The position numbers were made by a program, and so were the translations under genes. A model generated the notes under the pieces. That model ran no database searches. It saw only the letters and a program-made list of their open reading frames with translations, and was not told where the DNA came from. A DNA stretch of 64,000 nucleotides from a virus. The stretch lies in IMG/VR virus record IMGVR_UViG_3300007538_000020, positions 1 through 64,000 of that record. One strand, 5' to 3'. Of the stretch, positions 5,882-63,945 are shown one piece after another; the first letter of the stretch is position 1, and every line of letters begins with the position of its first letter.

Positions 5882-6368
5882 TTTAAATTTAAAATTTATG
5901 AGTAAAAATATATGCTTTGCTTATTATGGTGATAATACATTCTTAGGTTGGTATTCTGATACGTTTGGAACTTTAGATAAAAATGTACCTAAAATATATT
6001 CAAATTCTGAAAAACAAATAAGTATTATCAGAAGTAATTTTAATTACAAAATGGATATACTTAAAGGTAAAATAGAAGAACACTTATTTAAAAATTTAAT
6101 TAAATCTAGTAATCATATATTATCTAAATACGATAATATAGAATTACGTATTGTAAAATGTCCTATTTACGATGGCCCTAATCCTAATTTTAATAAAGAA
6201 GATTATATAAAATGGTTAGATACAAAAAAAGAAGGAGAAAAATATAATATACCTACTTGGATTTATGCTAATATAGAAGAAGTAAAAGAATGGGCTAAAA
6301 ATGAACCTACTAGATTTATTGATGTTATAAAATATAATTACAATGAGTTTGTTCAAAAAGAAAATTAA
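5874..6368 (+). CDS. Hypothetical protein (likely start at internal Met, MSKNICFAYYG)
   Basis: ORF track. Confidence 0.65.
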   Translation: MINLNLKFMSKNICFAYYGDNTFLGWYSDTFGTLDKNVPKIYSNSEKQISIIRSNFNYKMDILKGKIEEHLFKNLIKSSNHILSKYDNIELRIVKCPIYDGPNPNFNKEDYIKWLDTKKEGEKYNIPTWIYANIEEVKEWAKNEPTRFIDVIKYNYNEFVQKEN

Positions 6369-49547: not shown

Positions 49548-52500
49548 TTAAAAAGGAGGAGGACCACAATCGTCACCTTCTACCATATCTTCATCAGTTA
49601 TTTGATCTCTTAGATCGTCTATAGTTAATTGACTTGGGTCTAATAAAGATCCAAATGGAGAACTAGTAGGAAGTAAATCAGAATTTAAAGTAGGTGTTTC
49701 TTCTTTATTTATAGGAACTTCTACTGCTACTTCATTAACAGATTTAGTTAAAAAAGAGTTCATAGAATATTCATTATTTAATTGATTTACTTTTTCAAAT
49801 ATTCTATGAGTATCTGTTTCATCATATATCATATATAATTCACTTCTTCTTTTTTCTTTATTATACAGTTTAACAAAATCTGTTACTAATAAAGTATCAG
49901 GAGTAGTATTTTTAGTTATATCTATAGATACAGTTCTCTTATCTTTTGAAAATCTACCATTAACTATTTCAGGAGCTTTATTAGGATTGTTTCTAAAGAA
50001 TTGTTGGACAAATAATTTAGACATCTTTATCTCATTAATAGGATTATTATTTAGTATAGAATAAAACTCTTTAGAATTATAAGCATCTCCAAATCCAATA
50101 GATACTAAATACTCTATAGGAATAATAGAACTCAATCCATTAGAACTTCTTAGACCACCTGTTGTTAAATAAGAATAAGCTATTAAATCTTTAGCTAATA
50201 AAGCTTCTTCTGCATTATCAGAAGATAACATATCAGCTACAGTTTTCATACCATAAATTCTTTCAGTTGATTCTAATTGGTTTGTATTTAAAGTAATCTT
50301 ATCTACAAATAATTCTTTATTATCAGCTAACTCAATATTCATTCTTTGCATTAACCAATTATCAGGATTATCTGTTTTATATTTTAATAACCTGGCTCCT
50401 ATTCCTTTAAGAATATTTTTTCTATATTCATCAAAAGTTACTTCTGTAGAATAAAGATTATTTTTCTTATAAGTCATTAAGAATTGAATTAATGCTTTTT
50501 TAACATCTCTACTTAGTTTTTGAGATAACTCATCACTACCTAAAGATTTTAAAATATCAGCATTAATATCATAAAACAACTTACTATTATATGGATATAA
50601 ACTATTATTGTTATATAAACTTATAACAGGTCTATAAGCTTTATCCATTAACTCACCTGCAAATGTTTTAGTATAAAAATCATCTACATTTCTAAATGGT
50701 AAAGCTTTAACAGCTTCTTCTGAAAGTTGAGTACTCTCTCTATATTTATCTGATAGATTTATGTTTTTAACTAAATCAGTAAAGTTTTTACCTACTGATT
50801 GAGTATCTATATTTAAACCATTTATAACTTCAGTTAATTTAGCAGCTGTATTACTATATTGCATATAAGTATGTAATATTTTTAATTGAGCTTCATAGAA
50901 TAATATCTTTTGTTGATTATTTAAAGATTCTAAATTTTTATTAATTTTTAAATTATTCTCTAAACCTTTTTTAGAAAATATACCAATATCAGTAGCTGTA
51001 AATGGTTTACCTTTTAATTCTTTTATTTTATTATTAAAATAATTTATAGTTTGTATTTCAGCTTCTTCTTCATAAGTAGTCTTTACATACTTATTTAAAC
51101 TTGATTTACTAGCTTTTAAAATTTCAATATATTTAACAATAGCAGGTTGTTTTAAAAAGCCTACAATCAAAGATAAATCATCTATACCAGATATTGCTAT
51201 ATACATAGCTGTAGGTAATGTTTCTATATTTAAATTAGCTTTATTCAACTGTTGCTCTTTAGCGTTATCCACAGCAGCAGATTGGAATATCTGTAGTATA
51301 TCTGATATATAGGTATTGTTAACAACACCTCTTATTTTATTAAGTTTAAATAATCCAAATAATTCTTTATTATTATAAGAACCTGCTTTGTCTAAATCAA
51401 CATCAGTATATAATTCATCTGAATCATCTTTTTTAAATTTAACTCCTTTTATAACATCATTTGTTTTTAAAGCAAAATTAGTATACTGAGCTTGAGAAAA
51501 GAAAGTAGAAAATAAAGAAGTAATACCAACTGCTGTTTTACCTACTACGTTAGATTCGAAATAAGCATCTTGTGTTACTGAAGAAAAAGGACTTATTACT
51601 TCTGTTTGTTCATCATATTGACTATAGTGATCATTCACTTCTTTTAACACATCAATTTCGTTTGGCTTCAACATTCTTTCTAATAACTTAGGATTAGTAA
51701 GAACATCTAAGTACATATCTATTATCTTATTCTGTCTGGCTTTTAAAGTATTCTGAGCAGCAGGTGATTGTTCTTTAAAGGTTTCAAAGTCAGGAATATA
51801 TTTTTTATTTATCAATTCATTTATTAAAGATTTTTTACTTGTTATATAATCCTCTTCTATTTCTTTAAATTCTTTATTTAAAAATAAAGTCTTAACATTT
51901 AATAACTCTATTTTTTCTCTTATTTCATCTTCTTCTTCTCTAGTTTTAGCTTCTTCTAATTGTTCAGCATAATCTTCTAATAGACGTTGAGTATCTTTAT
52001 TACTCTTTATTGCTTTCTCATACTCTTTCTTATAAAATGAGAATGTTTTGAGTTTTGATTTATTCTCTCTTAAATATAAAGCTAATAACTCTTCTACTTT
52101 TTCAACATACCTATTCTCTACATCTTTCTCATCTAAAGATTCACTATATTTAACTACTTGTTTAGTTATAGGATCTACGTTTTTAAAATAAATATATAAT
52201 TTATCAACGTCAAAGTCAGATCCCATTCTCTTCAACATCTCAGGAGAAACTACAACTAAGTCTCCCATAGAAGGAGGTAAGAATCCTTGAATTTTTAATG
52301 GAACCATTAAGTTATGTCCTTGGTTAGGAATCCTAAAACCAACTACTCTTAATAATTCTTCAGGTATATTATTAATATCGCTAAAATAACTTTTAAAGAT
52401 ATTTGGTAAATATATTCCTTCAGGTAATGTTCTAGCTTCTTCATTAGATTTTTGATTAAACCTTTCATTTAAAATATCAGATAAAGCTCTAGCTTGAGAT

Positions 52501-55500
52501 ATATCTGTAGTAGCAAATTGATCAGTTAATGTTTTACCTTTAGCTTTTTGATATAAATCTTTTTCTAAATCTGGATTTTCATTTAAATATTGTTCCCATA
52601 AAGATTTATAAGCTTGGTAAGACTCTTCTTTAGTCATTTTATTTAAAGGTGCTTTACCTTTACCTAATTTCCAATCGTTACCTTGAACTCTATATCCTTT
52701 AACATCTAATTGATATGCTTCCTCTATAGTTCTACCATCATTTAATTTAGCATATAAAGCACTAAATCTTTTATCTCCTTTAGAAGAAACTTCATAATTA
52801 TTTTTATTTTCTTTTTTATATCTACTCCAATCTATTTTTGTTTCTGATTCAATAGATAAGGTATCTAATGAATTACTATTATCTCTAATATACTGAATCT
52901 TATTTTTTGCATTTTTAAATAATTCTGATTCTGTATCTATTACTTTATTAAATGCAAAGTTAGAAGCTTGAACAAATGATTTACCACTCATCTTCTGTTT
53001 TACTAATTTATTAGTAAAAATAGATAATAAGAGTGATTCTATTTGTTCAGAGTAAGGTGTTAAGTATAAAGGAATTAAGAATTTATTATCAAGTGTTTCT
53101 AAAGCTTGTAAAAAGTTTTCATCAAATCCTCTTGACTCAGCTTCTCTTAATATTACTTCTTTAAATTTATCTATATTATTTATTTGATACCTTTTAGTTT
53201 CAGGATCATAATAAGACTCTAAAGTAGCTACTATTAAGTTTCTATAATTCTCTTGTACTGTATATAAGTGTAAGTCTTCGAACAATGCTTTTTTCTCTTC
53301 TGCATTAGCATCAAATTCTTTTAAAGCTTCAAAGAGAAGTTTTCTAGCCTGAGAAACTAAGTTTACTTTATTTTTCTCTGCATCGAAAGGAACTTCTTGC
53401 TGTAGTCTCATACCACTCCAAGGAAGAACATTTATGTTATCGGGATCTAAATCTAATAACTCATAGTTTTCATTTACAATTGGTTGTATACCTTGTGAAC
53501 CTATCTTAGAAGCAGATTCAAAAAATAGTATATCTACAGGATTATCTTTATTTTCCATTTTATCCTTTAACTCTTTTAATTGAGTAAAGTTATTATTATT
53601 AACTAATTCGTTAATCAATGGAAATGCTGAGAACTTAATATATTTAGGTACATATACTTTTAAAGTATCATCCCATACATCCTCCACGTATACAGGTTTC
53701 AGAGGTCCTAATACTTTGTATAAATCTTTATTAGATAGTTTTTGATTATTTCTTATCTTATTAATAATTCTCTTATAATCTTTATCTAATCTACCTAAAC
53801 CATCTAACATTTTTTCATAAGTATCTAAGGTTACTATTGCCTGAGCATCAGTACCATTCATATCTTTAGAATACTCTTCAACTAATTTATCATAAGTTTT
53901 CTTATCTTTAACAATTGATTTTAAGTCTTCTAAAAATTTATCTTTATTTTTTAAAGGATAATAAATATCTTTAACGATAGCAGCTCTAAATGAACCTTCT
54001 AAAAAGAAGTCTAAACCAGGAGCTAAGTTTTTAGCAGCTCGTTTTGAAGCATCATCAAGGTTTTTAGTAAAAGCTAAATCGTTATCCATCAAACTAGAAT
54101 ATACAATTTGAGATAATAAACTATTATATATATAACTATCTAATAAGTCTATATCTTTATCTTTTTGTTTAGAATAATTTACATCAATATATTTAGATAA
54201 TATATTTCCTTTATTATTTACTAAATTAAGTTTTTGTAATTGTTTTATTTTTTCTTCTTTAAGCTTAATGAAAATATCATTTAAAGCATTTAATATTTGT
54301 TCCTTATGTACTTCTGGATTATATAAAGGATCAGTTAATAAGAAAGTAGAGTTCTCTGTAGATAAACTTGTTTTATTTAAAGTTGGAAATATTACAAATT
54401 TAAAAGCTTCCCCATCTTTACTTAATTTATCTTTTTTGTAATGATAGTTTAAAACTAACTTTGATTCTAATCTCTTTTTTAGAGCTGGGTCAGTTGTAGT
54501 TTTTATAGCATCTATTAATCTATGAGCTTCTCTTATTCTATTAAACTCTGATATATAAATACTATATAAGTTATTTAAAGATTCAGAATCTAATCTATTA
54601 TTAACAAAAGATACTCTAAACTTAGGCATTTTAATAAAAGGAATAGTAGGTTTATCTGACTGAGTAGGAGATATAAACCAACCTGTACTATTACCTTCAT
54701 TCATAAAACCAATCAATTTAGTTATCTCTCTTTCTTGAGGAGATAAGTTTTTAAATGGTTTACCATTACCATAATCTCCTATTTTATTAAAGTTAGAGAA
54801 TATAGCATATTCAAAATTAGTAGAATTCCACTCACCTGAATTTAATTTCTGTGTAATAAAACTATCTTTATGAAAAGGACTATTATTTAAAGCTAATCTA
54901 AAAGTAGAATTAGCATTAAATAAATCTCTCATTTTTTTAGATAAAGCGTGATTAGCAAAAACAGAATAAATGTTTTTACCCTCTTCGTTTCTAAACATAG
55001 TTGAGTAAACGTTATTATTAGTTAATAATTCAGCTAATGATAACATTTTAATATTGTTACTTTCTTTAGAAAAAGGATTATTATCTATCGCATTATCACC
55101 TTCTTTTATTGATTCTAATGATTCAAATATTCTATAAACAGAAGATAAGAATTTAGTAGCAGTGTATTTTCTATTAATTAATTGAGGACTATTAACAATT
55201 ATACTTATAGTTTCAGGACTAATATCTATACCTAAATCTTTTAATAATGGTCTTAAATAAGATAATTTAACTTCAATACTCTGCTGATTATCTTTTATAA
55301 TTCTATAATTCTCTAATATTTTATTTATTCTTTTTAAATCATAAACTAATTGATTATTAGAATATTTTACATTCTTATTTAAATTTGTATTTTTAAAGTT
55401 TTCATACCAATTAGTTATTATTAATTCATTAGCTTCTCTTCTATTAGAATAAATAAATCTTAATGTATTATTATTGTCATTTTTAGTAAACTGAGCTGTA

Positions 55501-58500
55501 ACAAATTTAGCATGTTGTTTACTAAAGTTAGACATGAATTCTTTATAAACAGCAACAGAGTCTTGATTTTTAGAATTCTTAAACTCATTTAATTTCTCAG
55601 CTATGTAATGATACATTGAATTATATCTACCTAATTCTTGTAACCTATCATATATTTCTTCTATAGGAACATTAGATAAGTTTAATACTAAGTTATTATA
55701 TACTACATCATAAGGTAGATAAGATGTCATGTTGAAAATATTAACTTTATTCTCAAACGCACCTTTAGTATTCTTTATTCTTTCAGGAATAAAAGCTAAA
55801 AACTTTTTCATTCTGGCAGAAGCTGAATCTTTTGGATTAACCTGAAATGCTTCTCTACCATAAGATTCTGAACCAATAGAATCTAACTCTAAATCTTCAT
55901 CATACTCATCTTCTAATAATTCAGAGTATGTTATGATTTTATCAAGACTTTTTATATAAGCAATAGATTTTTCTACTATTTTTTTGAAAGTAGGATTATT
56001 AAAATCATTTGCTAGAATAGATTCATATCTTTCTAATATAGGATCTTCTGAATCTAGTAATTCTATTTCTTCTTTAGTTTCTAATAATATATTTTTTAAT
56101 TTACTAACAGCTTCATCTATTTTTTTATCTGGATTACGTAGAATAAAATCCAATAATACTTTACTTGATGATTTTAATATTTCATCAGTTTCGAAAATAG
56201 ATAATTCAGGAACTAAGAAGTTTTCATATAAATCATATGATTTTTCTTCAGAGTTTAATTTATTATTAGAATATTTGTTATCATAGTTTAATATATCAGA
56301 TACATGCTTATCTACTAATTCATAAATAGAATTATTTTTAGTTGATATACCAAATAAAGATTTAATAAAATCTATAAACTTATCAAATACAGATTTATCT
56401 TTATCAGTATTTTTTAATCTTTCTTTAAACTCTTTATTAGAAAAAGCTTCTGATAAGAATTCATCTATTGATGATAAAGCATAATTGAACTTATCATCTT
56501 TTATTTTCTCTTTAGCTTCTTTGTATAATTGTTGTAGATCTTTATTACCTGTGTGTTTATGTAAAGCAGCGTGTAATAATTCGTGTACTATTACATATTC
56601 TATATCTCTTGAAGACTTTTTAATAGCTTTAGTATTAATAAGAATTGTATTAGTATTAGCATTATATTTAGCTATCTTTTTATCCTGAGCATAGTAATAT
56701 TTAAAGGTAGGTAAATTACCTTTTAAGTTATTTAATATCTTATCATAAATAATACTTAATTCAGGATCTTTACTAATTAGTTCTGGTAATACATCATATT
56801 CATTACCTACTAATTTAGTTAATTGTCTTATGTTATGTATATTACCTAATTGTGAATTGAAAGTAACACTAGAATCTATAAAAAATAAGTCATTAGGATT
56901 TTCTACATCATCTAAATCGATTACTTTACCTAAAGGATTTGTTTTACCAGATGATTTACCTTTAGGAGGAGTTTTAGGTGGAGTTTTAGGCTTAGGCTTA
57001 GGCTTAGCTTTTGGCTTAGGTTTAGCTTTAGGTTTAACTGATTTAGTAGCAGGTTCGTTTTTGTTAGTTAAAGCTTTATTAATATATGCTTCGGCAAACT
57101 CTCTTATATTTTTAAAACCTTGTTTATCTTTTTTATATTCAGCTAAAATGCTAGGATATTTCTTAGCAATATTTCCTACAGCTTTTTCAGTTTGTACATA
57201 TTCTAAATCTTCATTTGTAAATTTAGTATTTTCTGTATCAGGTATTAGTACTTCTTTATTATTAGGTTTATAAGTAGATTCTTCTTTTTTAGAAGTTTCA
57301 TCTATAACTTTAAATGATATTACTGGTTGTAAGTTATAATACTTTTTACCAGGATTACTTTCACTATAAGGTAAACCTTTAACATTAGTTGTTAAGTTTC
57401 TACCAAGAAACTCTCTATTACTTATTTTACCTTTATAAACTAATTGGTTATTATCAAATTCCATATTGATATAATCACCTTTAAGTATATTATATCTAAG
57501 GTTAGATAATAATTCTCTTATTTTAGATTCATCTTTATTAGTAAAATATTCAGTAGTCCATCCTCCTTTAGAAGACTTAGTAGTGAATATTCTAATTTCT
57601 TTTGTTTTACTATCTCTAACTACTTTAAAGTTATTAGAGTTATTACCATTATAAACAATATAATTCAATAGTTTTGAAGCAGAATTAATTTCCGCAGGAA
57701 AACCTAATTTAGCTAATTCTGTTGGGTTATCATATCTATCCCAATTTTGTAATATATATAGAGCTTTTTCTATAGCATTTTGATCTAATTGTCTAGGAAC
57801 AACAGCCCATGGCATTAATACTTTTTTATTAGGATTTTTAGAACCTCTTGCGAAAGTAGGTATTAATGCGAATACAGTACCTTTTTTAAATTTATTTACA
57901 TTACTAACATCTATTTCACTATCAGATAAATCTGGGTTACCTATTATTTGTAAAGCATTAACATCATCTGCATAACCAAATGCTATATCAGAATCTAATG
58001 TTTGACCATCTCCTAACTTTTCTACTAAACTACCATAGTTATCTGTTTTATTAAACACACCATTATTCTTATCAGTTATTTCTATAGTAACTGGATTATT
58101 ATTAGTTACTAAACTATCAAATAATTTAGTTCTTAATTCTAATAATTGTTTCTGAGCTTCTTTAGTATTTTTTTCACTTATTAATCTTGCTATGTTAGGA
58201 TCTATTCTATCTAAACTAGTTACTTGATTTTGGAAAGCATGTACATAAGCTACTTTCTTATTATTAGAATCTACTATAACATAAGGAATCTTATGTAAGT
58301 TTTTAGAGTTTATCTCTATATTATTCTCCTTAGCATATTCCTCATCTATAATAATTGAAAATCTCTCACCTGGTAATATCTTATCTCTATCTAATAAATC
58401 ATTGTTTATTAAATTATTAATAACAAGATTACCATTTTCATCATAGACATCTTCTAAATCTTCATTTTTTTCTATATGAAGATAAGCAAAGGTTATGATA

Positions 58501-61019
58501 TTTCCTTTTTTATATTTTACATCTTCTTCTTCATATACACTTTCATTATCTTCTAAAACAGATTCTTCTGTTTGACCACTAGTATCTATTACATCTGGGT
58601 CTGTATTTAAAGTAGGTTTAGTTTTAGTTTTAGGTTTAGCTTTAGCTTTAGACTTAGGAGGAGTCTTTGGTTTTTTACTTAACTCTTTTTCTAAATCTAT
58701 TACGCCTTCAGAAATTAATGTAGCAGCTTCAGCGAATAAGTCCTCATACTTATTCATTAAATCAATTTCTTCTTGTGTTAAATCTACACCTTTGAGTTGT
58801 TTGTCTATTATTTCTAATATTCTTCTTTGAGAAGGTTTTTCGTCAGTAGATGTTGTTGCATCTGATTCTTCTTCTGTATCTGTTTCTGATTCTTTTTGAG
58901 ACTGTTTAAAGTTTTCATACTTTAAATCTATTTCCTTTTTCTTATCTTCTGAAAGATTAGGATACATTAGTTTTAACTCTTCAAATAATTTATCTACAGT
59001 ATCAGCATCATTATTATTAATAGCTTCATCAAAAGAAATTTCTTTTTCTTTAATTACTTTATCAAAAGCATCTTTAACTTCTTTCTCTCTTTGGTCATTA
59101 ATATCTTTTTCTCTTTTAGTGGCATACTCAGAATCTTTTAATTTTCTATAATTATCTGTGTTGTTAGTTACTTGTATTTCAGATGCTAATATATTAGCTA
59201 CTTTTTTCTGTACATCTCCATCTATCTCATCTATTAAAAAATCAACTTCACCAAAAGGTTTATTAGTATCTTCTTTTATTTTTTCTTGTAAAGATTTTAA
59301 TTCTCTAGAATTAGATTCTAATTTAGATTGTAAAAATTCTATATCTTTTTCTGATAAATTCTTTCTGGTATCTTCCTCAGATAATACACCTTCAATTACT
59401 TTATTTTCGTTTAATAATTGATTACCTCTTATTACAGAATCTTTAATTAAATTATCTACATTAGATAAATTAGCTTTACTATATATATCAAATAAAGATG
59501 CTTTAGCTTTAGTTATAGTTTCTTTGTTAAGAAGTATATTAGCTAAGTTATTAAAAGCTTCTAATCTAACATTAGTTAATGAACCATCAAATTCATTAGT
59601 TACTTTATTCCAAGTATTTTCTATAATGTCTACTGCTTTTAGATATTCTCCTTTTTTATTTTTAATAACATTAGGATCTAATCCAGCTGCAACAGCTTCT
59701 TCCTCTGTCATATTGAACATCTCATCTAAAGTAGCTTTAAACTGTTCAATAGTTCCTTGTTCAGCATTATGAAATGCTAAGTTATATAACATTTTCTTTT
59801 GAAGTTGTTCATATTTAACTTCATCATTATTAGCTATAGCTTCTTGCATTTCAGCATAAAGTTTAGAATTTTTATTAAAAATATCTTTAACTTTATCTTT
59901 ATTTTTATTAGCAAATGCCATTGCTTTTTCTTCTTGCTGAGCATATGTAGGAGCACCTTTTATCTTTGATATAGCATCATTCAATTTTTGTCCTCCAGCC
60001 TCAAAAGCAACACCACCAACTGCACCTAATAGACCTGCTGTTAAACCTTCATCAGAAGTTAAATAATCCATAAACCTACTAGATATAGTAGTATCATCTT
60101 GAATATTTAAAGCATCTCTTTCATTATCTTTTGCTATAAAATCCATTAAAACCTCTTCACCATATTCACCAGCAGCGTTCATAAAATATTCTTTTCCTCT
60201 CTTTTTAATCCAAGGAGAAGCAGCATCAGCAAATCTAGAAGCAGTTTTAATTCCTCTCATTAAAGTATAGTATTGAGGAATTTCAAACATTAAATTTATT
60301 TTAGATTGGTATACTATATCCATAGCTTCATTTAAAGCTACTTCATTAGAAACACCTTGACTTAATAATGATTTATAAGTTTGAGAAGCATTTTGCATAG
60401 CTTCTACGTAATTCATTGAATAAGCACTAGTAAGAGCACTACCAAATTTAGTTGCGTTAGCTCCTAGTTTTAAAGCTTGTAATCCTAAAGAAGTAGCTCT
60501 ACCAATAGCCATACCAGGAACCATATAACCTAATGATTCTAATACAGTATCACCATTTCTCATCCACCATTCAAAAGATAATGGGTCAAACTCTTCACTA
60601 CCAGGAATAGATCTACTGAACTCTGGAAGTTCTTCATCTAATTTATCTTTTAATCCTCTTACTGATTCTGATACAGTGTTTGTAAAATCTCTTTCTAATC
60701 CTAATATTTCAGGAATATCTAATAGAAAACCTATTGATTCTGGTATAGTTAAAGCAGCCTTACCTATACCTCTTAAAGTCATATTACCTAATTTAGTTAG
60801 TCTAGATTGCTTTTCATTCAAATCTTCCATTATAGTAGAAGATGTAACATTGTTATAGTTTACACCATATTTATCTGCATACTTCTGTATTACAGGATCT
60901 AAAGTTACACTGTTAGGGTCTGGAAAATTAACCCTATCTATTTTAAATTGTTGTTTAGGATCTTGTAGAGGATCTAAACTGTTGTTAAAATTTATATCTT
61001 TAAATATACTGTTAGCCAT
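49548..61019 (-). CDS. Giant virion-packaged DNA-dependent RNA polymerase polyprotein (crAss-type)
   Basis: 3823 aa; catalytic GSDFDVDK (~52200-52224), RIPNQG, TDAQ, AVDNAK; HELLH zincin motif (~56571-56585). Confidence 0.9.
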   Translation of the reverse strand: MANSIFKDINFNNSLDPLQDPKQQFKIDRVNFPDPNSVTLDPVIQKYADKYGVNYNNVTSSTIMEDLNEKQSRLTKLGNMTLRGIGKAALTIPESIGFLLDIPEILGLERDFTNTVSESVRGLKDKLDEELPEFSRSIPGSEEFDPLSFEWWMRNGDTVLESLGYMVPGMAIGRATSLGLQALKLGANATKFGSALTSAYSMNYVEAMQNASQTYKSLLSQGVSNEVALNEAMDIVYQSKINLMFEIPQYYTLMRGIKTASRFADAASPWIKKRGKEYFMNAAGEYGEEVLMDFIAKDNERDALNIQDDTTISSRFMDYLTSDEGLTAGLLGAVGGVAFEAGGQKLNDAISKIKGAPTYAQQEEKAMAFANKNKDKVKDIFNKNSKLYAEMQEAIANNDEVKYEQLQKKMLYNLAFHNAEQGTIEQFKATLDEMFNMTEEEAVAAGLDPNVIKNKKGEYLKAVDIIENTWNKVTNEFDGSLTNVRLEAFNNLANILLNKETITKAKASLFDIYSKANLSNVDNLIKDSVIRGNQLLNENKVIEGVLSEEDTRKNLSEKDIEFLQSKLESNSRELKSLQEKIKEDTNKPFGEVDFLIDEIDGDVQKKVANILASEIQVTNNTDNYRKLKDSEYATKREKDINDQREKEVKDAFDKVIKEKEISFDEAINNNDADTVDKLFEELKLMYPNLSEDKKKEIDLKYENFKQSQKESETDTEEESDATTSTDEKPSQRRILEIIDKQLKGVDLTQEEIDLMNKYEDLFAEAATLISEGVIDLEKELSKKPKTPPKSKAKAKPKTKTKPTLNTDPDVIDTSGQTEESVLEDNESVYEEEDVKYKKGNIITFAYLHIEKNEDLEDVYDENGNLVINNLINNDLLDRDKILPGERFSIIIDEEYAKENNIEINSKNLHKIPYVIVDSNNKKVAYVHAFQNQVTSLDRIDPNIARLISEKNTKEAQKQLLELRTKLFDSLVTNNNPVTIEITDKNNGVFNKTDNYGSLVEKLGDGQTLDSDIAFGYADDVNALQIIGNPDLSDSEIDVSNVNKFKKGTVFALIPTFARGSKNPNKKVLMPWAVVPRQLDQNAIEKALYILQNWDRYDNPTELAKLGFPAEINSASKLLNYIVYNGNNSNNFKVVRDSKTKEIRIFTTKSSKGGWTTEYFTNKDESKIRELLSNLRYNILKGDYINMEFDNNQLVYKGKISNREFLGRNLTTNVKGLPYSESNPGKKYYNLQPVISFKVIDETSKKEESTYKPNNKEVLIPDTENTKFTNEDLEYVQTEKAVGNIAKKYPSILAEYKKDKQGFKNIREFAEAYINKALTNKNEPATKSVKPKAKPKPKAKPKPKPKTPPKTPPKGKSSGKTNPLGKVIDLDDVENPNDLFFIDSSVTFNSQLGNIHNIRQLTKLVGNEYDVLPELISKDPELSIIYDKILNNLKGNLPTFKYYYAQDKKIAKYNANTNTILINTKAIKKSSRDIEYVIVHELLHAALHKHTGNKDLQQLYKEAKEKIKDDKFNYALSSIDEFLSEAFSNKEFKERLKNTDKDKSVFDKFIDFIKSLFGISTKNNSIYELVDKHVSDILNYDNKYSNNKLNSEEKSYDLYENFLVPELSIFETDEILKSSSKVLLDFILRNPDKKIDEAVSKLKNILLETKEEIELLDSEDPILERYESILANDFNNPTFKKIVEKSIAYIKSLDKIITYSELLEDEYDEDLELDSIGSESYGREAFQVNPKDSASARMKKFLAFIPERIKNTKGAFENKVNIFNMTSYLPYDVVYNNLVLNLSNVPIEEIYDRLQELGRYNSMYHYIAEKLNEFKNSKNQDSVAVYKEFMSNFSKQHAKFVTAQFTKNDNNNTLRFIYSNRREANELIITNWYENFKNTNLNKNVKYSNNQLVYDLKRINKILENYRIIKDNQQSIEVKLSYLRPLLKDLGIDISPETISIIVNSPQLINRKYTATKFLSSVYRIFESLESIKEGDNAIDNNPFSKESNNIKMLSLAELLTNNNVYSTMFRNEEGKNIYSVFANHALSKKMRDLFNANSTFRLALNNSPFHKDSFITQKLNSGEWNSTNFEYAIFSNFNKIGDYGNGKPFKNLSPQEREITKLIGFMNEGNSTGWFISPTQSDKPTIPFIKMPKFRVSFVNNRLDSESLNNLYSIYISEFNRIREAHRLIDAIKTTTDPALKKRLESKLVLNYHYKKDKLSKDGEAFKFVIFPTLNKTSLSTENSTFLLTDPLYNPEVHKEQILNALNDIFIKLKEEKIKQLQKLNLVNNKGNILSKYIDVNYSKQKDKDIDLLDSYIYNSLLSQIVYSSLMDNDLAFTKNLDDASKRAAKNLAPGLDFFLEGSFRAAIVKDIYYPLKNKDKFLEDLKSIVKDKKTYDKLVEEYSKDMNGTDAQAIVTLDTYEKMLDGLGRLDKDYKRIINKIRNNQKLSNKDLYKVLGPLKPVYVEDVWDDTLKVYVPKYIKFSAFPLINELVNNNNFTQLKELKDKMENKDNPVDILFFESASKIGSQGIQPIVNENYELLDLDPDNINVLPWSGMRLQQEVPFDAEKNKVNLVSQARKLLFEALKEFDANAEEKKALFEDLHLYTVQENYRNLIVATLESYYDPETKRYQINNIDKFKEVILREAESRGFDENFLQALETLDNKFLIPLYLTPYSEQIESLLLSIFTNKLVKQKMSGKSFVQASNFAFNKVIDTESELFKNAKNKIQYIRDNSNSLDTLSIESETKIDWSRYKKENKNNYEVSSKGDKRFSALYAKLNDGRTIEEAYQLDVKGYRVQGNDWKLGKGKAPLNKMTKEESYQAYKSLWEQYLNENPDLEKDLYQKAKGKTLTDQFATTDISQARALSDILNERFNQKSNEEARTLPEGIYLPNIFKSYFSDINNIPEELLRVVGFRIPNQGHNLMVPLKIQGFLPPSMGDLVVVSPEMLKRMGSDFDVDKLYIYFKNVDPITKQVVKYSESLDEKDVENRYVEKVEELLALYLRENKSKLKTFSFYKKEYEKAIKSNKDTQRLLEDYAEQLEEAKTREEEDEIREKIELLNVKTLFLNKEFKEIEEDYITSKKSLINELINKKYIPDFETFKEQSPAAQNTLKARQNKIIDMYLDVLTNPKLLERMLKPNEIDVLKEVNDHYSQYDEQTEVISPFSSVTQDAYFESNVVGKTAVGITSLFSTFFSQAQYTNFALKTNDVIKGVKFKKDDSDELYTDVDLDKAGSYNNKELFGLFKLNKIRGVVNNTYISDILQIFQSAAVDNAKEQQLNKANLNIETLPTAMYIAISGIDDLSLIVGFLKQPAIVKYIEILKASKSSLNKYVKTTYEEEAEIQTINYFNNKIKELKGKPFTATDIGIFSKKGLENNLKINKNLESLNNQQKILFYEAQLKILHTYMQYSNTAAKLTEVINGLNIDTQSVGKNFTDLVKNINLSDKYRESTQLSEEAVKALPFRNVDDFYTKTFAGELMDKAYRPVISLYNNNSLYPYNSKLFYDINADILKSLGSDELSQKLSRDVKKALIQFLMTYKKNNLYSTEVTFDEYRKNILKGIGARLLKYKTDNPDNWLMQRMNIELADNKELFVDKITLNTNQLESTERIYGMKTVADMLSSDNAEEALLAKDLIAYSYLTTGGLRSSNGLSSIIPIEYLVSIGFGDAYNSKEFYSILNNNPINEIKMSKLFVQQFFRNNPNKAPEIVNGRFSKDKRTVSIDITKNTTPDTLLVTDFVKLYNKEKRRSELYMIYDETDTHRIFEKVNQLNNEYSMNSFLTKSVNEVAVEVPINKEETPTLNSDLLPTSSPFGSLLDPSQLTIDDLRDQITDEDMVEGDDCGPPPF

Positions 61020-63945
61020 TTAAAATATTGTTTATGTATTTTTGTGTTTCAAGAGGTAAAGCTGTTATATCTTTTTTATCGTATTTAATCCATTTGTCCA
61101 CATTACCTGTTCCCCAGTTATAAGCTGCTAAAGCTAAAACTTTGTCTCCTTTATATTTATCTAATAATGCTTCTAAATAATCTCTTCCTAATCTATATTG
61201 ATGTTTTATTTGTTCTTCAGCTGATAATTGTTCATAATTATCAGGAAGAGGTTTAATATTAAAACCAGGATTTTTACCTGTAGCTGACATTATTTGTGTT
61301 AGTCCAAATGCTCCTTTTTTAGAAACAGCAGATGGATCATAATTACTTTCTTGTTTCATCAAAGGTATCATTAATTCAGTAGCCATATTTTGATATATAT
61401 TATCTTTATTATTAGTTATAATTCCTGTGCTATCTTCTGTATTATCTTCGTTATCAAATATAATAGCCATTATGTTTTCTTTAGTAGGAACTATATCAGC
61501 AAATTTATCTTCAGTAGTTTGATTATTTGTTTGATTATCAGTTACTTTTTTTTTTTCGTTTTCAGCTGCCTGATTAAAGTTTTCTAAAAAATACTGAATT
61601 TGATTAGGAGAAAAACCATGTTGTTGAAGACCTTGTATAAAATAAGCTCTTTTTTGTTCAGCATCTAAATAAGGATTAGGTAATATTTCTGTTTCTAATT
61701 TATTTAAATCATAGAACATATTTAAAGCATCTAAAGTAGTATTAGCTTTTACTGTTATACCTTTATAAGTAACATCTAATTTACCTCCACTATCTTGATT
61801 ATTAAAAATATCTCTTGATAATTCTATTTTAGTATCTCCAACTTTAAATTCTGCGTATGTTCCTAAAGAATTTCTTAATTGATTTTCCATACTTTGAATA
61901 TATGAATAATCTAATTGACTTTGTAAACCTATTTCTTGTAACAATCCTACATCTTCAATAGGATATTCTATTTTAAGCTTATCATTAATAGCTATATCAG
62001 CCATCCATTTATTATCACCAGGATCATAAGTAAGAGCAAAACTAGCATTATAAAAATTATCAACATTTAATTTATCATCATCAACTTTATCTTTTTCACT
62101 TGCTTGTGAATTTTCATATAAAAATTTATTAACTAATTTTTTCTCATCTTCAGTTAAAGGTCTATTATCAGTAGTTCTAATTTCGTTAGAAGGATTAAAT
62201 GCTAAAGCAGTTTTAATTGTACTTATAACTCCTTCTCTTGCTCTTTTAGTATCTGGATTAAAGCCAGCAGGTATAACAAAAGATAAAGTAGAAAAAGAAG
62301 TAGCTTGTGTTAAATTATTTAATTTACCTACTATTTCTTTATACTGAGGAGAATAATTACTTAAATATTCATCTCTTTTTTTATTAGCGGCTTCTATTGT
62401 TTTATCACTTAGCTTTAAATCTTTTAAATCACTTCTTAATACAACATTAGTAGCTAATGGATAATAACCTGGTTTTATTTCTTCGAAACTGTCTACTACT
62501 TTTACAGGATGTGGCAGTAAAGGATTACCTGCATTACTTCTTTGTGCTCTATATAAAGTAATAGCTTCTTCTTCTAAAGCTTGTTCATAAACTTTATCAG
62601 CATTTTTTAATACTTCTGGATGTAAATCGCCATTTTTTAATTGTCTATTTAAATCTCCTAAAATTTGTTTTACTCCATTGTAAGTACTCCAATCTTTTTC
62701 TCTAATAGAATTTATAGGTAAAACAGAGTTAGCGTAAAAGTTATTATATGTTTGTTGTTGAGCTTGACTTAGATTATCATAATCTAAACCAGATACAATT
62801 AAAGATGTAAATCCTTTTCCATTATCTACATATTCAAAATTAACGTTAGGTATTTCTAATCCTTTATCTTGAAAAGCAGTTGTATATTGTGTACTTATTT
62901 CACTTATATATTCTTTATCTCTTTGTTCATTTGTTTCTGATAAAGCTTCTAAGTGTTTAGTCATTCCTTGAAAAGTATTAGCTGAACTTGGTAATAAAGG
63001 TTGTTGAGTTCTACTAGTAGCTATAGATGTTAAACTAGCAAAAGTACTTTCACTTGCTTTTTTACTACCACTACCACTACCATCTTTAGAAGGAGATACT
63101 TTTTTATTCATTTGTTCTGTTACAGAATGTTCATACATTCTTATTAAATTAACTCCTAAAACATCTTCTCTATATTTATTAATATCATATTCTAATCCTA
63201 AATCTTTTTCATAAGAAGCTTTTCTAAAAGCAAGACCTTCACCTTGACCTTCAAATAATGTATTAGTATATTCTTTATTATCACCTGTGATAAAATTAAG
63301 TAACATATCTTTATCTATGTATTCTTCTTGACCATATTCTCCTTCTTGATAATAATAAATTTCTCCATCTTCGGATTTACCTATTTTAAGGTCTGGAAAA
63401 TATGTTTTAATTTTTTCTAAAGAAGGTTTTAATAAATTGAAATGCCCTTGATATTCTTTTATCCAATCAGTTTTAGGTGTAAATTCATACCAAGATGGAT
63501 CAAAATCTTCACCTTTTTTTGTTTGTATATAATTTCCACTTTTATCTAAGTAATTAAATACAGCTCCTTTATTCTCTCTATTTATTTTTTCAGCTTCAGA
63601 TCTATATTTCTCATCATATAATATATTCTTATATTCAGGATTATTAGAAATCTCTCTGGCTAATGATTTTATGTTAGCCATTGCTTTAGATGAATTACCA
63701 GTTTTTTGAAGCTCTGTTAATATAGATTCTATTTGAGGATTATATTTCTCTTTAAACATAGTAGCTCTTTCACTAGTTCTATAACCTCCTTCAGGAAGTA
63801 GTTTAGCTAGTTCATCTGCAGTAGTATTAGCTTTATCAAAATCTGTTTGTTTTTGATTTAATGCTATAATAGCTTCTTTAAAAGGAAGCTCTGGTACTGG
63901 ATTTGGTATGTTATCTATTGATGGTAATTTAAAAAATCTAGCCAT
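61012..63945 (-). CDS. Virion/ejection protein with C-terminal SLT lytic transglycosylase domain
   Basis: QESNYDPSAVSKKGAFGLTQIM, ALAAYNWG.GNV, ETQKY. Confidence 0.87.
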   Translation of the reverse strand: MARFFKLPSIDNIPNPVPELPFKEAIIALNQKQTDFDKANTTADELAKLLPEGGYRTSERATMFKEKYNPQIESILTELQKTGNSSKAMANIKSLAREISNNPEYKNILYDEKYRSEAEKINRENKGAVFNYLDKSGNYIQTKKGEDFDPSWYEFTPKTDWIKEYQGHFNLLKPSLEKIKTYFPDLKIGKSEDGEIYYYQEGEYGQEEYIDKDMLLNFITGDNKEYTNTLFEGQGEGLAFRKASYEKDLGLEYDINKYREDVLGVNLIRMYEHSVTEQMNKKVSPSKDGSGSGSKKASESTFASLTSIATSRTQQPLLPSSANTFQGMTKHLEALSETNEQRDKEYISEISTQYTTAFQDKGLEIPNVNFEYVDNGKGFTSLIVSGLDYDNLSQAQQQTYNNFYANSVLPINSIREKDWSTYNGVKQILGDLNRQLKNGDLHPEVLKNADKVYEQALEEEAITLYRAQRSNAGNPLLPHPVKVVDSFEEIKPGYYPLATNVVLRSDLKDLKLSDKTIEAANKKRDEYLSNYSPQYKEIVGKLNNLTQATSFSTLSFVIPAGFNPDTKRAREGVISTIKTALAFNPSNEIRTTDNRPLTEDEKKLVNKFLYENSQASEKDKVDDDKLNVDNFYNASFALTYDPGDNKWMADIAINDKLKIEYPIEDVGLLQEIGLQSQLDYSYIQSMENQLRNSLGTYAEFKVGDTKIELSRDIFNNQDSGGKLDVTYKGITVKANTTLDALNMFYDLNKLETEILPNPYLDAEQKRAYFIQGLQQHGFSPNQIQYFLENFNQAAENEKKKVTDNQTNNQTTEDKFADIVPTKENIMAIIFDNEDNTEDSTGIITNNKDNIYQNMATELMIPLMKQESNYDPSAVSKKGAFGLTQIMSATGKNPGFNIKPLPDNYEQLSAEEQIKHQYRLGRDYLEALLDKYKGDKVLALAAYNWGTGNVDKWIKYDKKDITALPLETQKYINNILNG

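What the first reader, a model, noticed from the sequence alone, without database searches (positions are those of the whole stretch)
52458..52820. NADAR-like domain inserted into the catalytic region of the virion RNA polymerase
Seen: a ~115-aa module (YEVSSKGDKRFSALYAKLNDGRTIEEAYQLDVKGY...GKGK...LWEQYLNENP...LTDQFA...SQARAL) lies about 45 residues before RIPNQG and about 80 before DFDVD. I recognise it as a motif set of stand-alone phage/bacterial NADAR-superfamily-like proteins. Established: NADARs remove ADP-ribose from guanine and counter DarT1. Inference: the injected RNAP carries its own de-ADP-ribosylase to clear defence-installed lesions from the template, a pre-packaged anti-defence device riding on the polymerase.
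Basis: partly seen in the sequence, partly recalled or inferred. Interest (0 to 1): 0.75.

Follow-up and report, generated by a model that had tools for sequence, protein, structure and literature searches.

The report
NADAR-like domain inside virion RNA polymerase
A crAss-like phage has a small, very well conserved enzyme-like domain with the fold of ADP-ribose-removing (NADAR) enzymes built into the giant RNA polymerase that such phages pack into the particle, so it probably enters the cell with the DNA as a ready-made counter to ADP-ribose-based host defence, though its activity is untested.

Summary
Residues 2730-2856 of a 3,823-aa minus-strand ORF (window 52452-52832) form a discrete 127-aa domain. 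The ORF is a crAss-type Zn-protease plus two-barrel virion RNA polymerase polyprotein. The domain sits between the Connector-equivalent block and the DFDVD barrel, where four homologues without it have only 43-80 residues.

It matches PHROG 9995 ("unknown function", E 5e-49) and has no Pfam or NCBIfam family. Profile comparisons with canonical NADAR are not significant. The AlphaFold model (pLDDT 96) finds all three NADAR representatives of the PDB at Z 8.3-8.8, with the next chain at 4.2. NADAR-labelled viral proteins follow the family's own members in BFVD. Invariant E2766, K2774, K2787 and D2833 line up in order with NADAR ADP-ribose-site residues.

The same module occurs alone, at four or more other positions in crAss-type polymerases, and on T7-like RNA polymerases, SF1 helicases, PolA, Macro, SLOG, DUF4326 and AlkB-like domains. 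None of 133 deposited Crassvirales genomes carries it.

I read it as a divergent, probably active NADAR-type glycohydrolase delivered with the polymerase. Cleaning of DarT1 lesions from the template is plausible but unshown. Earlier notes of this scan report NADAR insertions in virion polymerases of other crAss-like genomes.

The parts
49548..61019 (-). 3,823-aa polyprotein ORF (P0001): N-terminal part with a zincin-like HELLH motif, then a crAss-type two-barrel virion RNA polymerase (about residues 1623-3823)
   Evidence: phmmer to 6vr4_A (phi14:2 gp66) gives E 2.8e-29. An alternative gene call, P0253, is identical from residue 1623.
52452..52832 (-). NADAR-like module, residues 2730-2856 (the finding's segment is 2734-2854)
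   Evidence: PHROG 9995 E 4.9e-49. A1 profile E 6.9e-61 at 52452-52832. AF2 pLDDT 96.1. NADAR folds on top at Z 8.3-8.8.
52848..52919 (-). Low-confidence, probably flexible linker before the module (residues 2701-2724)
   Evidence: AF2 model of residues 2660-2990: pLDDT below 50 at local residues 42-65, and 88-98 over the module.
52722..52724 (-). E2766 (module E33), invariant; candidate equivalent of the NADAR distal-ribose Glu (YbiA E48, E. coli C7 E88)
   Evidence: 100% conserved in 324 members. Aligned to YbiA E48 in non-significant but collinear hhalign and HMMER alignments. Role of the Glu from PMC11543638.
52698..52700 (-). K2774 (module K41), invariant; candidate equivalent of the NADAR phosphate/adenine Lys (YbiA K55, C7 K95), offset by one residue
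   Evidence: 100% conserved. Spacing is E-x3-Q-x3-K here and E-x3-Q-x2-K in NADAR.
52659..52661 (-). K2787 (module K54) in the G-K-G-K..P-L loop; candidate equivalent of the NADAR G78-R79 pyrophosphate loop
   Evidence: 99% conserved. Aligned to YbiA G78-R79-D80-R81..PL. Role of R79 from PMC11543638 section 12.
52521..52523 (-). D2833 (module D100), invariant acidic residue right after the last predicted strand; candidate equivalent of the family-defining charged residue (Asp in the BC4488/DarT1-linked NADARs)
   Evidence: 100% conserved. Strand at module residues 97-99 in the AF2 model. Family rule from PMC11125620 and PMC11543638. The forced hhalign pairs it with YbiA D130 instead, so the assignment is open.
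52317..52334 (-). RIPNQG motif at the start of the conserved DFDxD-bearing barrel block
   Evidence: Homologues resume alignment at about residues 2864-2887.
52203..52217 (-). DFDVD catalytic metal-binding motif of the polymerase (residues 2935-2939)
   Evidence: Equivalent to gp66 1361-DFDID-1365 (bioRxiv 10.1101/2020.03.07.982082).
56571..56585 (-). HELLH (HExxH) zincin-like metallopeptidase motif in the N-terminal part of the polyprotein
   Evidence: Weak Pfam YgjP-like (E 9e-5) and SprT-like (E 0.0037) hits at 1447-1492, both below the gathering cut-offs. Motif position. A gp65-type zincin fused to the polymerase in some crAss-like phages is described in bioRxiv 10.1101/2020.03.07.982082.

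Best explanation
The segment is a minimal (about 125 aa), strongly diverged member of the NADAR/YbiA fold class, most likely a working N-glycosidase for ADP-ribose-type adducts. It is inserted through a flexible N-terminal linker into the variable stretch between the Connector-like block and the DFDVD double-psi barrel of a crAss-type virion RNA polymerase polyprotein. Polymerases of this kind are packed in the particle and enter the cell with the DNA, so the module would be present before any phage gene is expressed. My committed reading is that it removes ADP-ribose (or a closely related ribosyl adduct) from bases of nucleic acid that the polymerase meets, either the incoming DNA template or the nascent RNA. 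In that reading it acts as a pre-packaged counter to ADP-ribosylating host defences. Shown here: domain boundaries, insertion, NADAR-like predicted fold, intact family signature, and recurrent fusion to nucleic-acid enzymes and ADP-ribose-network domains. Inferred: homology to NADAR, the equivalence of the catalytic residues, packaging of this particular protein, and the substrate.
For: Fold: AF2 pLDDT 96.1, pTM 0.89. VIA-align against 48,161 chains ranks 8bat_A (Z 8.8, 114 residues aligned, rmsd 3.3, 21% id), 8bau_A (Z 8.3) and YbiA 2b3w (Z 8.3) first, and the next chain scores Z 4.2. The top two Foldseek PDB hits are the same NADARs. In BFVD, after four family members, the list is dominated by NADAR-labelled proteins.
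Active site: all 35 positions that are at least 90% conserved in 324 members are kept in this copy, including invariant S20, E33, Q37, K41, D100 and A110. Non-significant but collinear alignments pair T-x-E33..Q37 with YbiA T46-x-E48..Q52, G-K54-G-K..PL with G78-R79-D-R..PL, and D100 with an acidic residue after the last strand. These are the ADP-ribose contacts described in PMC11543638 section 12.
Context: the module is fused to Macro, cpYpsA SLOG, DUF4326 and AlkB-like domains. That is the network in which the Aravind group places viral NADARs (PMC9503650). It is also fused to SF1 helicases, PolA, RNase H and T7-like RNA polymerase. In crAss-type polymerases it occurs at four or more different positions.
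Timing: it is the third gene from the left end of an N4-like phage genome, in what is the early region in N4. Here it lies inside a protein whose homologue gp66 is virion-packaged and injected (bioRxiv 10.1101/2020.03.07.982082).
Age of the insertion: composition equals that of the host gene, so it is an old, maintained insertion.
Precedent: phage NADARs (AdfN) remove guanine-ADP-ribose and defeat DarTG1 (PMC11825919).
Against: No sequence method links the module to NADAR. Pfam PF08719 gives no hit. hhalign gives probability below 1%. HMMER gives E of about 0.4-1 against a set of only 47 sequences. The residue equivalences therefore rest on forced alignments and on a predicted model that I could not superpose residue by residue. 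The Lys is offset by one position from the NADAR spacing. The acidic residue could match either E125 or D130 of YbiA. Z of 8-9 is only moderately above what unrelated models reach in this tool. The module lacks the N-terminal extension proposed to bind ssDNA in DarT1-linked NADARs. Its SLOG, Macro and DUF4326 partners are interpreted in PMC9503650 as acting on soluble ADP-ribose derivatives. Packaging of this protein, and whether the polyprotein is cleaved, are not known. The host and its defences are unknown.
Confidence: 0.5

Rival explanations
1. Same fold and same chemistry, but the substrate is a soluble NAD/ADP-ribose-derived molecule, such as an immune signal or a toxic ADP-ribose derivative. 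The polymerase merely serves as the vehicle that carries the enzyme into the cell at time zero.
For: The module is fused to cpYpsA/YAcAr SLOG, Macro, DUF4326 and a dual-specificity phosphatase. PMC9503650 (section 3.7.4) argues that phage NADAR, Macro, SLOG and Nudix domains mainly target low-molecular-weight ADP-ribose derivatives and are often virion-packaged. There is no DarG1-type N-terminal DNA-binding extension. Its position in crAss-type polymerases is not fixed, as expected for cargo.
Against: The recurrent fusions are to enzymes that track nucleic acids: two unrelated classes of RNA polymerase, PolA, SF1 helicases, RNase H and AlkB-like. All NADARs tested so far hydrolyse guanine-ADP-ribose on DNA (PMC11125620, PMC11825919).
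Confidence: 0.22
2. The module is a NADAR-fold N-glycosidase with a substrate unrelated to ADP-ribose. Examples would be a damaged, modified or chain-terminating nucleotide, or a base adduct that would poison phage polymerases and helicases.
For: YbiA itself cleaves riboflavin-pathway ribosylamines, not ADP-ribose conjugates (cited in PMC11543638 and PMC9503650). The family is too diverged for any sequence link to ADP-ribose-active NADARs. It is fused to an AlkB-like dioxygenase, to polymerases and to helicases.
Against: Basic residues sit where NADAR binds the pyrophosphate (K41, K54). Macro, SLOG and DUF4326 partners point to ADP-ribose.
Confidence: 0.13
3. The module is a non-catalytic structural, nucleic-acid-binding or regulatory insert of the polymerase, which merely retains a NADAR-like shape.
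For: There is no assay. The insertion lies in a tolerant linker. gp66-type polymerases have many unique accessory domains (bioRxiv 10.1101/2020.03.07.982082).
Against: About 35 positions are at least 90% conserved over clusters that are at most 50% identical overall, many of them polar (E, D, K, S, Q, Y), whatever the partner protein and also in stand-alone forms. The same domain works in many unrelated architectures.
Confidence: 0.07
4. The similarity to NADAR is convergent or a modelling coincidence, and the module belongs to another superfamily, for example the DUF4326/rhodanese-phosphatase-like group suggested by the language-model search.
For: The nearest named clusters in the ESM Atlas are DUF4326 (0.84), DUF6939 and DUF488. 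All sequence comparisons with NADAR are non-significant.
Against: The Atlas scores are below its own reliability line, and DUF4326 is a frequent fusion partner, which can mislabel clusters. DUF4326 proteins align over only 57-63 columns at low probability in BFVD, whereas NADARs cover 130-160 columns. Two independent aligners and two libraries put NADARs first.
Confidence: 0.08

Closest known systems
AdfN, anti-DarT factor NADAR (T4 gp30.3, AdfN-Bas32, AdfN-Bas60; PMC11825919, PMC11125620)
   Same: A phage-encoded NADAR-fold protein deployed early against host ADP-ribosylation of phage DNA. AdfN proteins are diverse, were co-opted several times, and some are detectable only with sensitive searches.
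   Different: AdfN proteins are free-standing, expressed after entry, and recognisable as PF08719-type NADARs. T4-type AdfN has His as the charged residue of the last strand. The module here is about 40 residues shorter, invisible to Pfam, has an invariant Asp, and is built into a virion polymerase. Its activity is untested.
DarG1 / BC4488-family NADAR antitoxins (G. lovleyi NADAR 8BAT, E. coli C7 NADAR; PMC11543638)
   Same: 8BAT is the best structural match (Z 8.8, 21% identity over 114 residues). There is an Asp after the last strand, and Glu and Lys on the first long helix.
   Different: There is no N-terminal beta1-beta2-alpha1 extension (model residues 3-121 align to chain 39-196), no neighbouring DarT, and no significant sequence similarity.
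YbiA (E. coli N-glycosidase, 2B3W) and the YbiA subfamily
   Same: Core fold (Z 8.3). Motif order: aromatic-x-x-S strand, FS-hydrophobic, DG-basic..T-x-E-x-x-x-Q, basic G-x-x loop, acidic residue near the last strand.
   Different: hhalign probability is below 1%. The module is shorter, lacks the Y-W-G motif, and has a different spacing of the Lys.
phi14:2 gp66 and other crAss-like virion RNA polymerases (PDB 6VR4; bioRxiv 10.1101/2020.03.07.982082)
   Same: The host protein is of this kind: DFDxD motif, phmmer E 2.8e-29, and fusion with a zincin-bearing N-terminal protein as described for some crAss-like phages.
   Different: gp66, crAss001, p-crAssphage and all 133 deposited Crassvirales records searched lack this module. 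Here about 130 extra residues sit between the Connector-equivalent block and the DFDxD barrel.
Polyvalent, virion-embedded multi-domain effector proteins of phages, and virion-packaged NADAR, Macro and Nudix proteins (as discussed in PMC9503650)
   Same: A large protein delivered with the DNA that combines several enzymatic domains meant to act at the first moment of infection.
   Different: [quoted passage not shown] An internal insertion in a two-barrel RNA polymerase is not mentioned in any paper I could search.
NADAR domains embedded next to the RdRp in nidovirus and other RNA-virus polyproteins (PMC9503650; yellow head virus pp1ab hits in BFVD)
   Same: A NADAR-fold domain carried within the same polypeptide as a viral RNA polymerase.
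   Different: Those are eukaryotic RNA viruses with RNA-dependent polymerases and canonical NADAR sequence.

Membership tests
NADAR superfamily (Pfam PF08719 / YbiA fold) | YbiA fold: helical core flanked by two small beta sheets | tested here: met
   AF2 model pLDDT 96. 8bat, 8bau and 2b3w rank 1-3 of 48,161 chains at Z 8.8, 8.3 and 8.3 with 112-116 of 121 residues aligned; the next chain scores Z 4.2. Foldseek PDB top two are the same NADARs. NADAR-labelled proteins appear in BFVD. This rests on a predicted model.
NADAR superfamily (Pfam PF08719 / YbiA fold) | Significant match to the family's sequence profile | tested here: not met
   No PF08719 hit at E<=1. hhalign of A1 against a YbiA-branch profile gives probability 0.1%. 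Richer profiles (324 modules against 47 NADARs) give E 0.19. HMMER in both directions gives E 0.4-1. A PDB sequence-profile search finds no NADAR.
NADAR superfamily (Pfam PF08719 / YbiA fold) | Conserved Glu and Lys on the first core helix (YbiA E48/K55; C7 E88/K95) | tested here: inconclusive
   Invariant E33 and K41 lie on the first long helix. E33 and Q37 pair with E48 and Q52 in forced alignments, while K41 is one residue further along than K55. No residue-level superposition was available.
NADAR superfamily (Pfam PF08719 / YbiA fold) | Conserved charged residue in or at the last strand (Glu in YbiA family, Asp in BC4488 family, His in phage gp30.3 type) | tested here: inconclusive
   Invariant D100 directly follows the last predicted strand, residues 97-99. 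This would be the BC4488-type state. However, hhalign pairs it with YbiA D130 rather than E125.
NADAR superfamily (Pfam PF08719 / YbiA fold) | N-glycosidic hydrolysis of ADP-ribose-base (or ribosylamine) bonds | not testable with these tools
   Needs an enzyme assay.
AdfN / DarG1-type anti-DarT1 NADARs | N-terminal fold extension with a basic groove for ssDNA, and the K115-type Lys needed for rescue from DarT1 | tested here: not met
   The module starts at the core: model residues 3-121 align to 8BAT residues 39-196. The module is 121-127 aa, against 189-219 aa for the crystallised NADARs.
AdfN / DarG1-type anti-DarT1 NADARs | Rescue from DarT1 toxicity, or restoration of plaquing on DarTG1 hosts | not testable with these tools
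   Genetic assay required.
crAss-type two-barrel virion RNA polymerase (gp66 family), the host protein | DFDxD metal-binding motif with Ile or Val at position 4, and homology to gp66 on both sides of it | tested here: met
   DFDVD at 2935-2939. phmmer to 6vr4_A gives E 2.8e-29, with stretches 1688-2693 and 2885-2958. tblastn finds 133 Crassvirales and Flavobacterium-phage records annotated as RNA polymerase.
crAss-type two-barrel virion RNA polymerase (gp66 family), the host protein | Packaged in the virion and injected | not testable with these tools
   Shown for phi14:2 gp66 (bioRxiv 10.1101/2020.03.07.982082); inferred here. The neighbouring ORF 61012-63945(-) has a C-terminal endolysin/transglycosylase-like domain typical of internal virion proteins.

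The most novel reading that the evidence does not exclude
Phages tether a minimal NADAR-type eraser directly to the enzymes that must travel along their nucleic acid: crAss-type virion RNA polymerases at several sites, T7-like RNA polymerases, PolA, SF1 helicases, and possibly the phiKZ gp82 protein (annotated as DNA polymerase in related phages) through a -1 frameshift. ADP-ribosyl (or similar) base lesions laid down by host defences would then be removed in cis at the point where they would stall the motor. This would be a phage form of transcription- and replication-coupled lesion reversal, with the fusion partner supplying the nucleic-acid binding that the stripped-down core lacks.
Probability: 0.22. 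Interest if true: 0.85.

Novelty: new variant of a known kind. Interest (0 to 1): 0.66.

Why it matters
DarT-type and other ADP-ribosylating defences act within minutes. A phage that brings the eraser in with its DNA, on the very enzyme that reads that DNA, would escape the window in which ordinary early genes are still silent.

The family has hundreds of clusters, is listed as "unknown function" in PHROGs and has no Pfam family. Giving it a fold and a testable active site would annotate genes in phiKZ-like, N4-like and crAss-like phages.

Its repeated fusion to unrelated polymerases and helicases gives a concrete, testable idea of lesion removal in cis. It also points to which host defences matter for crAss-like phages, the most abundant gut viruses, whose counter-defence repertoire is almost unknown.

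Tried and rejected
Searches that gave nothing:
- Pfam and NCBIfam scans of the segment gave nothing relevant.
- The source name "A1S_2505 family phage non-structural protein" on one long fusion protein is not a model for this module. NCBIfam does not hit the module, and the two papers that hold the term did not look relevant from their titles and abstracts and were not opened.
- A PDB sequence-profile search found only noise.
- hhalign and HMMER against NADAR profiles built from YbiA homologues and 37 viral NADAR loci were not significant. I used the forced alignment only to check motif order.
- The ESM Atlas gave DUF4326, DUF6939 and DUF488 below its reliability line. I judged these a fusion-partner artefact.

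Context of the family:
- The search for related loci with the barrel region as a single protein found only one relative.
- The genome-contig scan found only 9 cellular loci, mostly cyanobacteria.
- The own genome has no canonical NADAR and no second copy of the module.

Origin of the insertion:
- The tree of module sequences was too poorly resolved to count independent insertions (7 of 130 branches supported). It showed only a loose cluster of crAss-polymerase and SF1-helicase copies.
- A recent horizontal origin is rejected: GC is 26.0% against 25.6% for the ORF.
- An intein or homing-element reading is rejected: the fold is NADAR-like, stand-alone forms exist, and terminal fusions are common.

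Tangents and literature:
- A tblastn with a DUF7831+module protein did not link the module to deposited crAss genomes.
- Pfam found nothing in phiKZ gp82 or in several mid-size fusion proteins.
- Literature searches for NADAR together with crAss-like phages gave no relevant paper.

Full report
WHAT IS THERE

The finding lies on the minus strand inside one uninterrupted ORF, 49548..61019(-), of 3,823 codons (P0001). The stated coordinates 52458-52820 are residues 2734-2854, and every quoted string is present. YEVSS starts at 2742, SQARAL at 2841, RIPNQG at 2896 and DFDVD at 2935.

The ORF is a crAss-type polyprotein:
- phmmer finds the phi14:2 virion RNA polymerase gp66 (6vr4_A) at E 2.8e-29.
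- The upstream part carries an HELLH zincin-like motif at 1479-1483, with weak YgjP/SprT-like Pfam hits below the cut-offs. This is the gp65+gp66 type of fusion described in bioRxiv 10.1101/2020.03.07.982082.
- The record is a 94,981-bp IMG/VR virus, 92% complete by CheckV. The window's GC is 24.8%.
- The neighbouring ORF 61012-63945(-) ends in an endolysin/transglycosylase-like domain typical of internal virion proteins.

A DISCRETE, INSERTED DOMAIN

The segment matches PHROG 9995 (124 positions, "unknown function") from end to end at E 4.9e-49. It also matches at least 246 stand-alone proteins of 116-200 aa at 50-71% identity. The profile boundaries in P0001 are 2730-2856, which is window 52452-52832.

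In gp66 the flanking blocks align (query 1688-2693 and 2885-2958) with 61 residues between them. The query has 191. Three further polymerases without the module have 43-80 residues there and no module hit in six frames: an IMG/VR contig (L049), the Steigviridae phage cr128_1 and Flavobacterium phage Fpv3.

By the gp66 domain map (Connector 1095-1238, DFDID 1361-1365), the insertion point lies between the Connector and the DFDxD-bearing double-psi barrel. That is about 80 residues before the catalytic loop.

An AF2 model of residues 2660-2990 gives pLDDT 88-98 for the module. A stretch of about 24 residues before it (2701-2724) falls below 50. The module's last helix runs on towards the polymerase block. 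The picture is a folded lobe on a flexible N-terminal tether.

Its GC (26.0%) equals that of the gene (25.6%), so the insertion is old. It is the only copy in the genome.

WHAT THE DOMAIN IS

No sequence library names it. Pfam and NCBIfam give nothing, and a PDB sequence-profile search gives only noise.

The AF2 model built on 33 homologues is very confident (pLDDT 96.1, pTM 0.89). Fold searches with it gave:
- Foldseek against the PDB puts two NADARs first: 8bat at E 0.17, probability 0.87, and 8bau.
- The Foldseek-independent VIA-align search of 48,161 chains puts all three NADAR representatives first. These are 8bat_A (Z 8.8, 114 residues aligned, rmsd 3.3, 21% identity), 8bau_A (Z 8.3) and E. 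coli YbiA 2b3w (Z 8.3). The fourth chain scores Z 4.2.
- In BFVD, after four family members, the list is filled with NADAR-labelled proteins. They include yellow head virus pp1ab, Fadolivirus, Bacillus phage pW2, Tupanvirus, Marseillevirus and BcepSaruman.

Against this, profile-profile and HMM comparisons with NADAR alignments are not significant. I built those alignments from YbiA homologues and 37 viral NADAR loci.

When hhalign is forced to extend, and in the best HMMER alignments, the conserved motifs of the two families fall in the same order:
- Y-E-x-S-S with the first NADAR strand.
- F-S-A-L with F-S-N-F.
- L-x-D-G-R-T-I-E33-x-x-x-Q37 with L-D-G-K-x-W-P-T-S-E48-H-Y-F-Q52.
- G-K54-G-K..P-L with G78-R79-D-R..P-L.
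- An aromatic at module position 68 with W89.
- D100 with an acidic residue at the end of the fold.

According to PMC11543638 (section 12), these are the residues that hold the distal ribose (E43/E48, E125), the phosphates (K50/K55, R79, W89) and a water-mediated phosphate contact (D130).

PMC11125620 states that the subfamilies are told apart by the charged residue of the last strand: Glu in YbiA, Asp in BC4488/DarT1-linked NADARs, His in phage gp30.3. Here an invariant Asp (D100 = D2833) follows the last predicted strand directly.

In 324 family members the copy in P0001 keeps all 35 positions that are at least 90% conserved, and all 20 that are 75-90% conserved. I conclude that this is a strongly diverged, minimal NADAR-fold domain with an intact, probably catalytic, signature. 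The probability of true NADAR kinship is about 0.85. It fails the family's sequence test, so I do not file it as a plain member.

WHERE ELSE IT OCCURS

The profile finds 893 clusters at 50% identity. The forms are:
- Stand-alone proteins of 120-145 aa.
- N-terminal fusions to T7-like RNA polymerase (PF00940, e.g. P0178), to RecD/Pif1-like SF1 helicases (e.g. P0123) and to PolA (P0164, P0219).
- Fusions with DUF4326, cpYpsA SLOG, Macro, an AlkB-like dioxygenase, RNase H and DUF7831.
- Many giant proteins of 2,000-6,146 aa.

Among the giants that align with P0001 around a DFDxD motif, the module sits at several sites:
- The same site as here: P0250, P0261, P0141.
- 38-200 residues after the motif: P0256, P0310, P0197, P0246, P0278.
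- Near the C-terminus: P0247, P0251, P0254 and others.
- At the N-terminus: P0274.

A tree of the modules is poorly resolved. It shows only a loose cluster of crAss-polymerase and helicase copies, and the query's nearest relative is a C-terminal copy (P0247, 74% identity).

In 50,697 deposited phage genomes the module occurs in 108 records, none of them Crassvirales. The polymerase barrel, by contrast, is found in 133 Crassvirales and related records. The carriers are:
- phiKZ-like jumbo phages.
- N4-like Achromobacter and Delftia phages, where it is the third gene from the left end, in what is the early region in N4.
- Sphingomonas phage PAU, Rhizobium phages and others.

Only 9 of 185,579 species genomes have it, mostly cyanobacteria, where it lies in large multi-domain proteins. 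It is thus essentially a viral domain. [quoted passage not shown]

HOW IT MOST LIKELY WORKS

Shown: fold class, intact signature, insertion on a flexible tether in a polymerase of the packaged and injected kind, and the two sets of partners.

Inferred: the module is a glycohydrolase for ADP-ribosyl-base bonds and arrives with the polymerase. It would therefore act before any phage gene is expressed, clearing adducts from the DNA the polymerase must read, or from its nascent RNA.

Precedent: AdfN NADARs of T4, Bas32 and Bas60 remove guanine-ADP-ribose and defeat DarTG1 (PMC11825919). PMC9503650 argues that NADAR, Macro and Nudix proteins are often virion-packaged.

Against the specific DarT1 story:
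- The module lacks the N-terminal extension proposed to bind ssDNA. Only residues 39-196 of 8BAT are matched.
- The SLOG, Macro and DUF4326 partners fit soluble ADP-ribose derivatives as well.
- Nothing is known of the host.

One way to reconcile the two partner sets is that the stripped core relies on its fusion partner for nucleic-acid binding. That is speculation.

I give the general "pre-packaged NADAR-type eraser for nucleic-acid adducts" reading 0.5. The rivals are soluble ADP-ribose derivatives (0.22), another N-glycosidic substrate (0.13), not NADAR at all (0.08) and non-catalytic (0.07).

NOVELTY

Known: phage NADARs as anti-DarT1 factors, virion-packaged ADP-ribose-processing enzymes, and polyvalent injected proteins.

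Not found in the papers I could search:
- This Pfam-invisible clade.
- Its insertion inside two-barrel virion RNA polymerases at several sites.
- Its fusion to T7-like RNA polymerases, PolA and helicases.

Earlier notes of this same scan describe NADAR domains in virion polymerases of other crAss-like genomes (25 findings in at least 19 genomes match the search words). The follow-up verdicts shown were similar to mine. These are AI notes, not independent evidence, but the phenomenon is not unique to this window. I class it as a new variant of a known kind.

LIMITS

- The fold evidence rests on predicted models.
- I could not superpose residues.
- No activity, packaging or host data exist for this phage.

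Noticed in passing
L050 (phiKZ AF399011.1) 5986-6366; slippery site at L050:5989-5995: In phiKZ the module's reading frame opens 10 nt before the stop codon of gp82 and has no ATG, GTG or TTG start until its last 38 codons (annotated as PHIKZ082.1). The last codons of gp82 read AAC CCA AAG TAA, which contains the classical -1 slippery heptamer C_CCA_AAG. A -1 shift there would fuse gp82 to the NADAR-like module. gp82 carries a D-I-E-T-N motif that resembles a polymerase exonuclease motif (my own reading), and the matching region in phages Noxifer and KEN51 overlaps features annotated as DNA polymerase. In PhiPA3 the module is a separate gene (gp084), 578 nt downstream of the gp82 homologue gp085.
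   Followed up: partly
proteins P0148, P0185, P0195, P0197, P0199, P0213, P0216-P0218, P0221, P0223, P0225, P0226, P0235, P0236, P0239: In about 16 proteins the module is itself split into two halves by 60-310 extra residues. The split falls between about profile positions 50 and 105, in or after the G-K-G-K loop. This looks like a second tier of domain insertion. The inserted sequences were not examined.
   Followed up: no
L064 (Achromobacter phage phiAxp-3, KT321317.2) 1229-1606: In N4-like Schitoviridae the stand-alone module is the third gene after the left terminal repeat. In N4 this early region is read by the injected virion RNA polymerase. It is another link between this domain and phages that carry their own polymerase.
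   Followed up: partly
proteins P0166, P0176, P0178, P0181, P0184, P0192-P0194, P0209 (about 524 aa): The module (residues 2-124) is fused to the front of a short protein whose residues 137-275 match only the first 170 positions of Pfam RNA_pol (T7-like), at E 7e-19. One cluster has 114 member sequences. This may be a split or miniature single-subunit RNA polymerase.
   Followed up: no
window 56571-56585 (-), residues 1479-1483 of P0001: An HELLH zincin-type motif with weak YgjP-like and SprT-like Pfam hits, both below the cut-offs. It is the gp65-type protease part of the polyprotein, possibly the enzyme that releases the polymerase.
   Followed up: partly
window 58611-58679 (-) and 56961-57035 (-), residues 781-803 and 1329-1353 of P0001: Two Lys/Pro/Thr/Ala-rich low-complexity tracts (K-P-K-A-K-P-K-type). 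They look like spacers or processing sites between parts of the polyprotein.
   Followed up: no
window 61012-63945 (-): A 977-aa ORF overlapping the start of the polymerase ORF by 8 nt. Its last 170 or so residues match endolysin, lytic tail protein, transglycosylase and 'internal virion protein with endolysin domain' PHROGs. It is likely an ejected, wall-degrading virion protein.
   Followed up: partly
BFVD hits A0A7M1RV35 (cr131_1, 1,401 aa, DUF7831-containing), A0A7M1RTM7 (cr130_1), A0A7M1RU68 (cr272_1): Large proteins of deposited crAss-like phages give NADAR-like structural matches to the model (TM-score 0.56-0.67 on the query, E 0.25-0.66), although tblastn with the module does not find them. 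Still more diverged NADAR-like domains may exist in Crassvirales. DUF7831 is also a direct N-terminal neighbour of the module in P0147, P0149 and P0237.
   Followed up: partly
window 35419-37065 (+): A 548-aa ORF with a match to an 'amidoligase enzyme' PHROG (E 2e-16), next to an unassigned 718-aa ORF.
   Followed up: no
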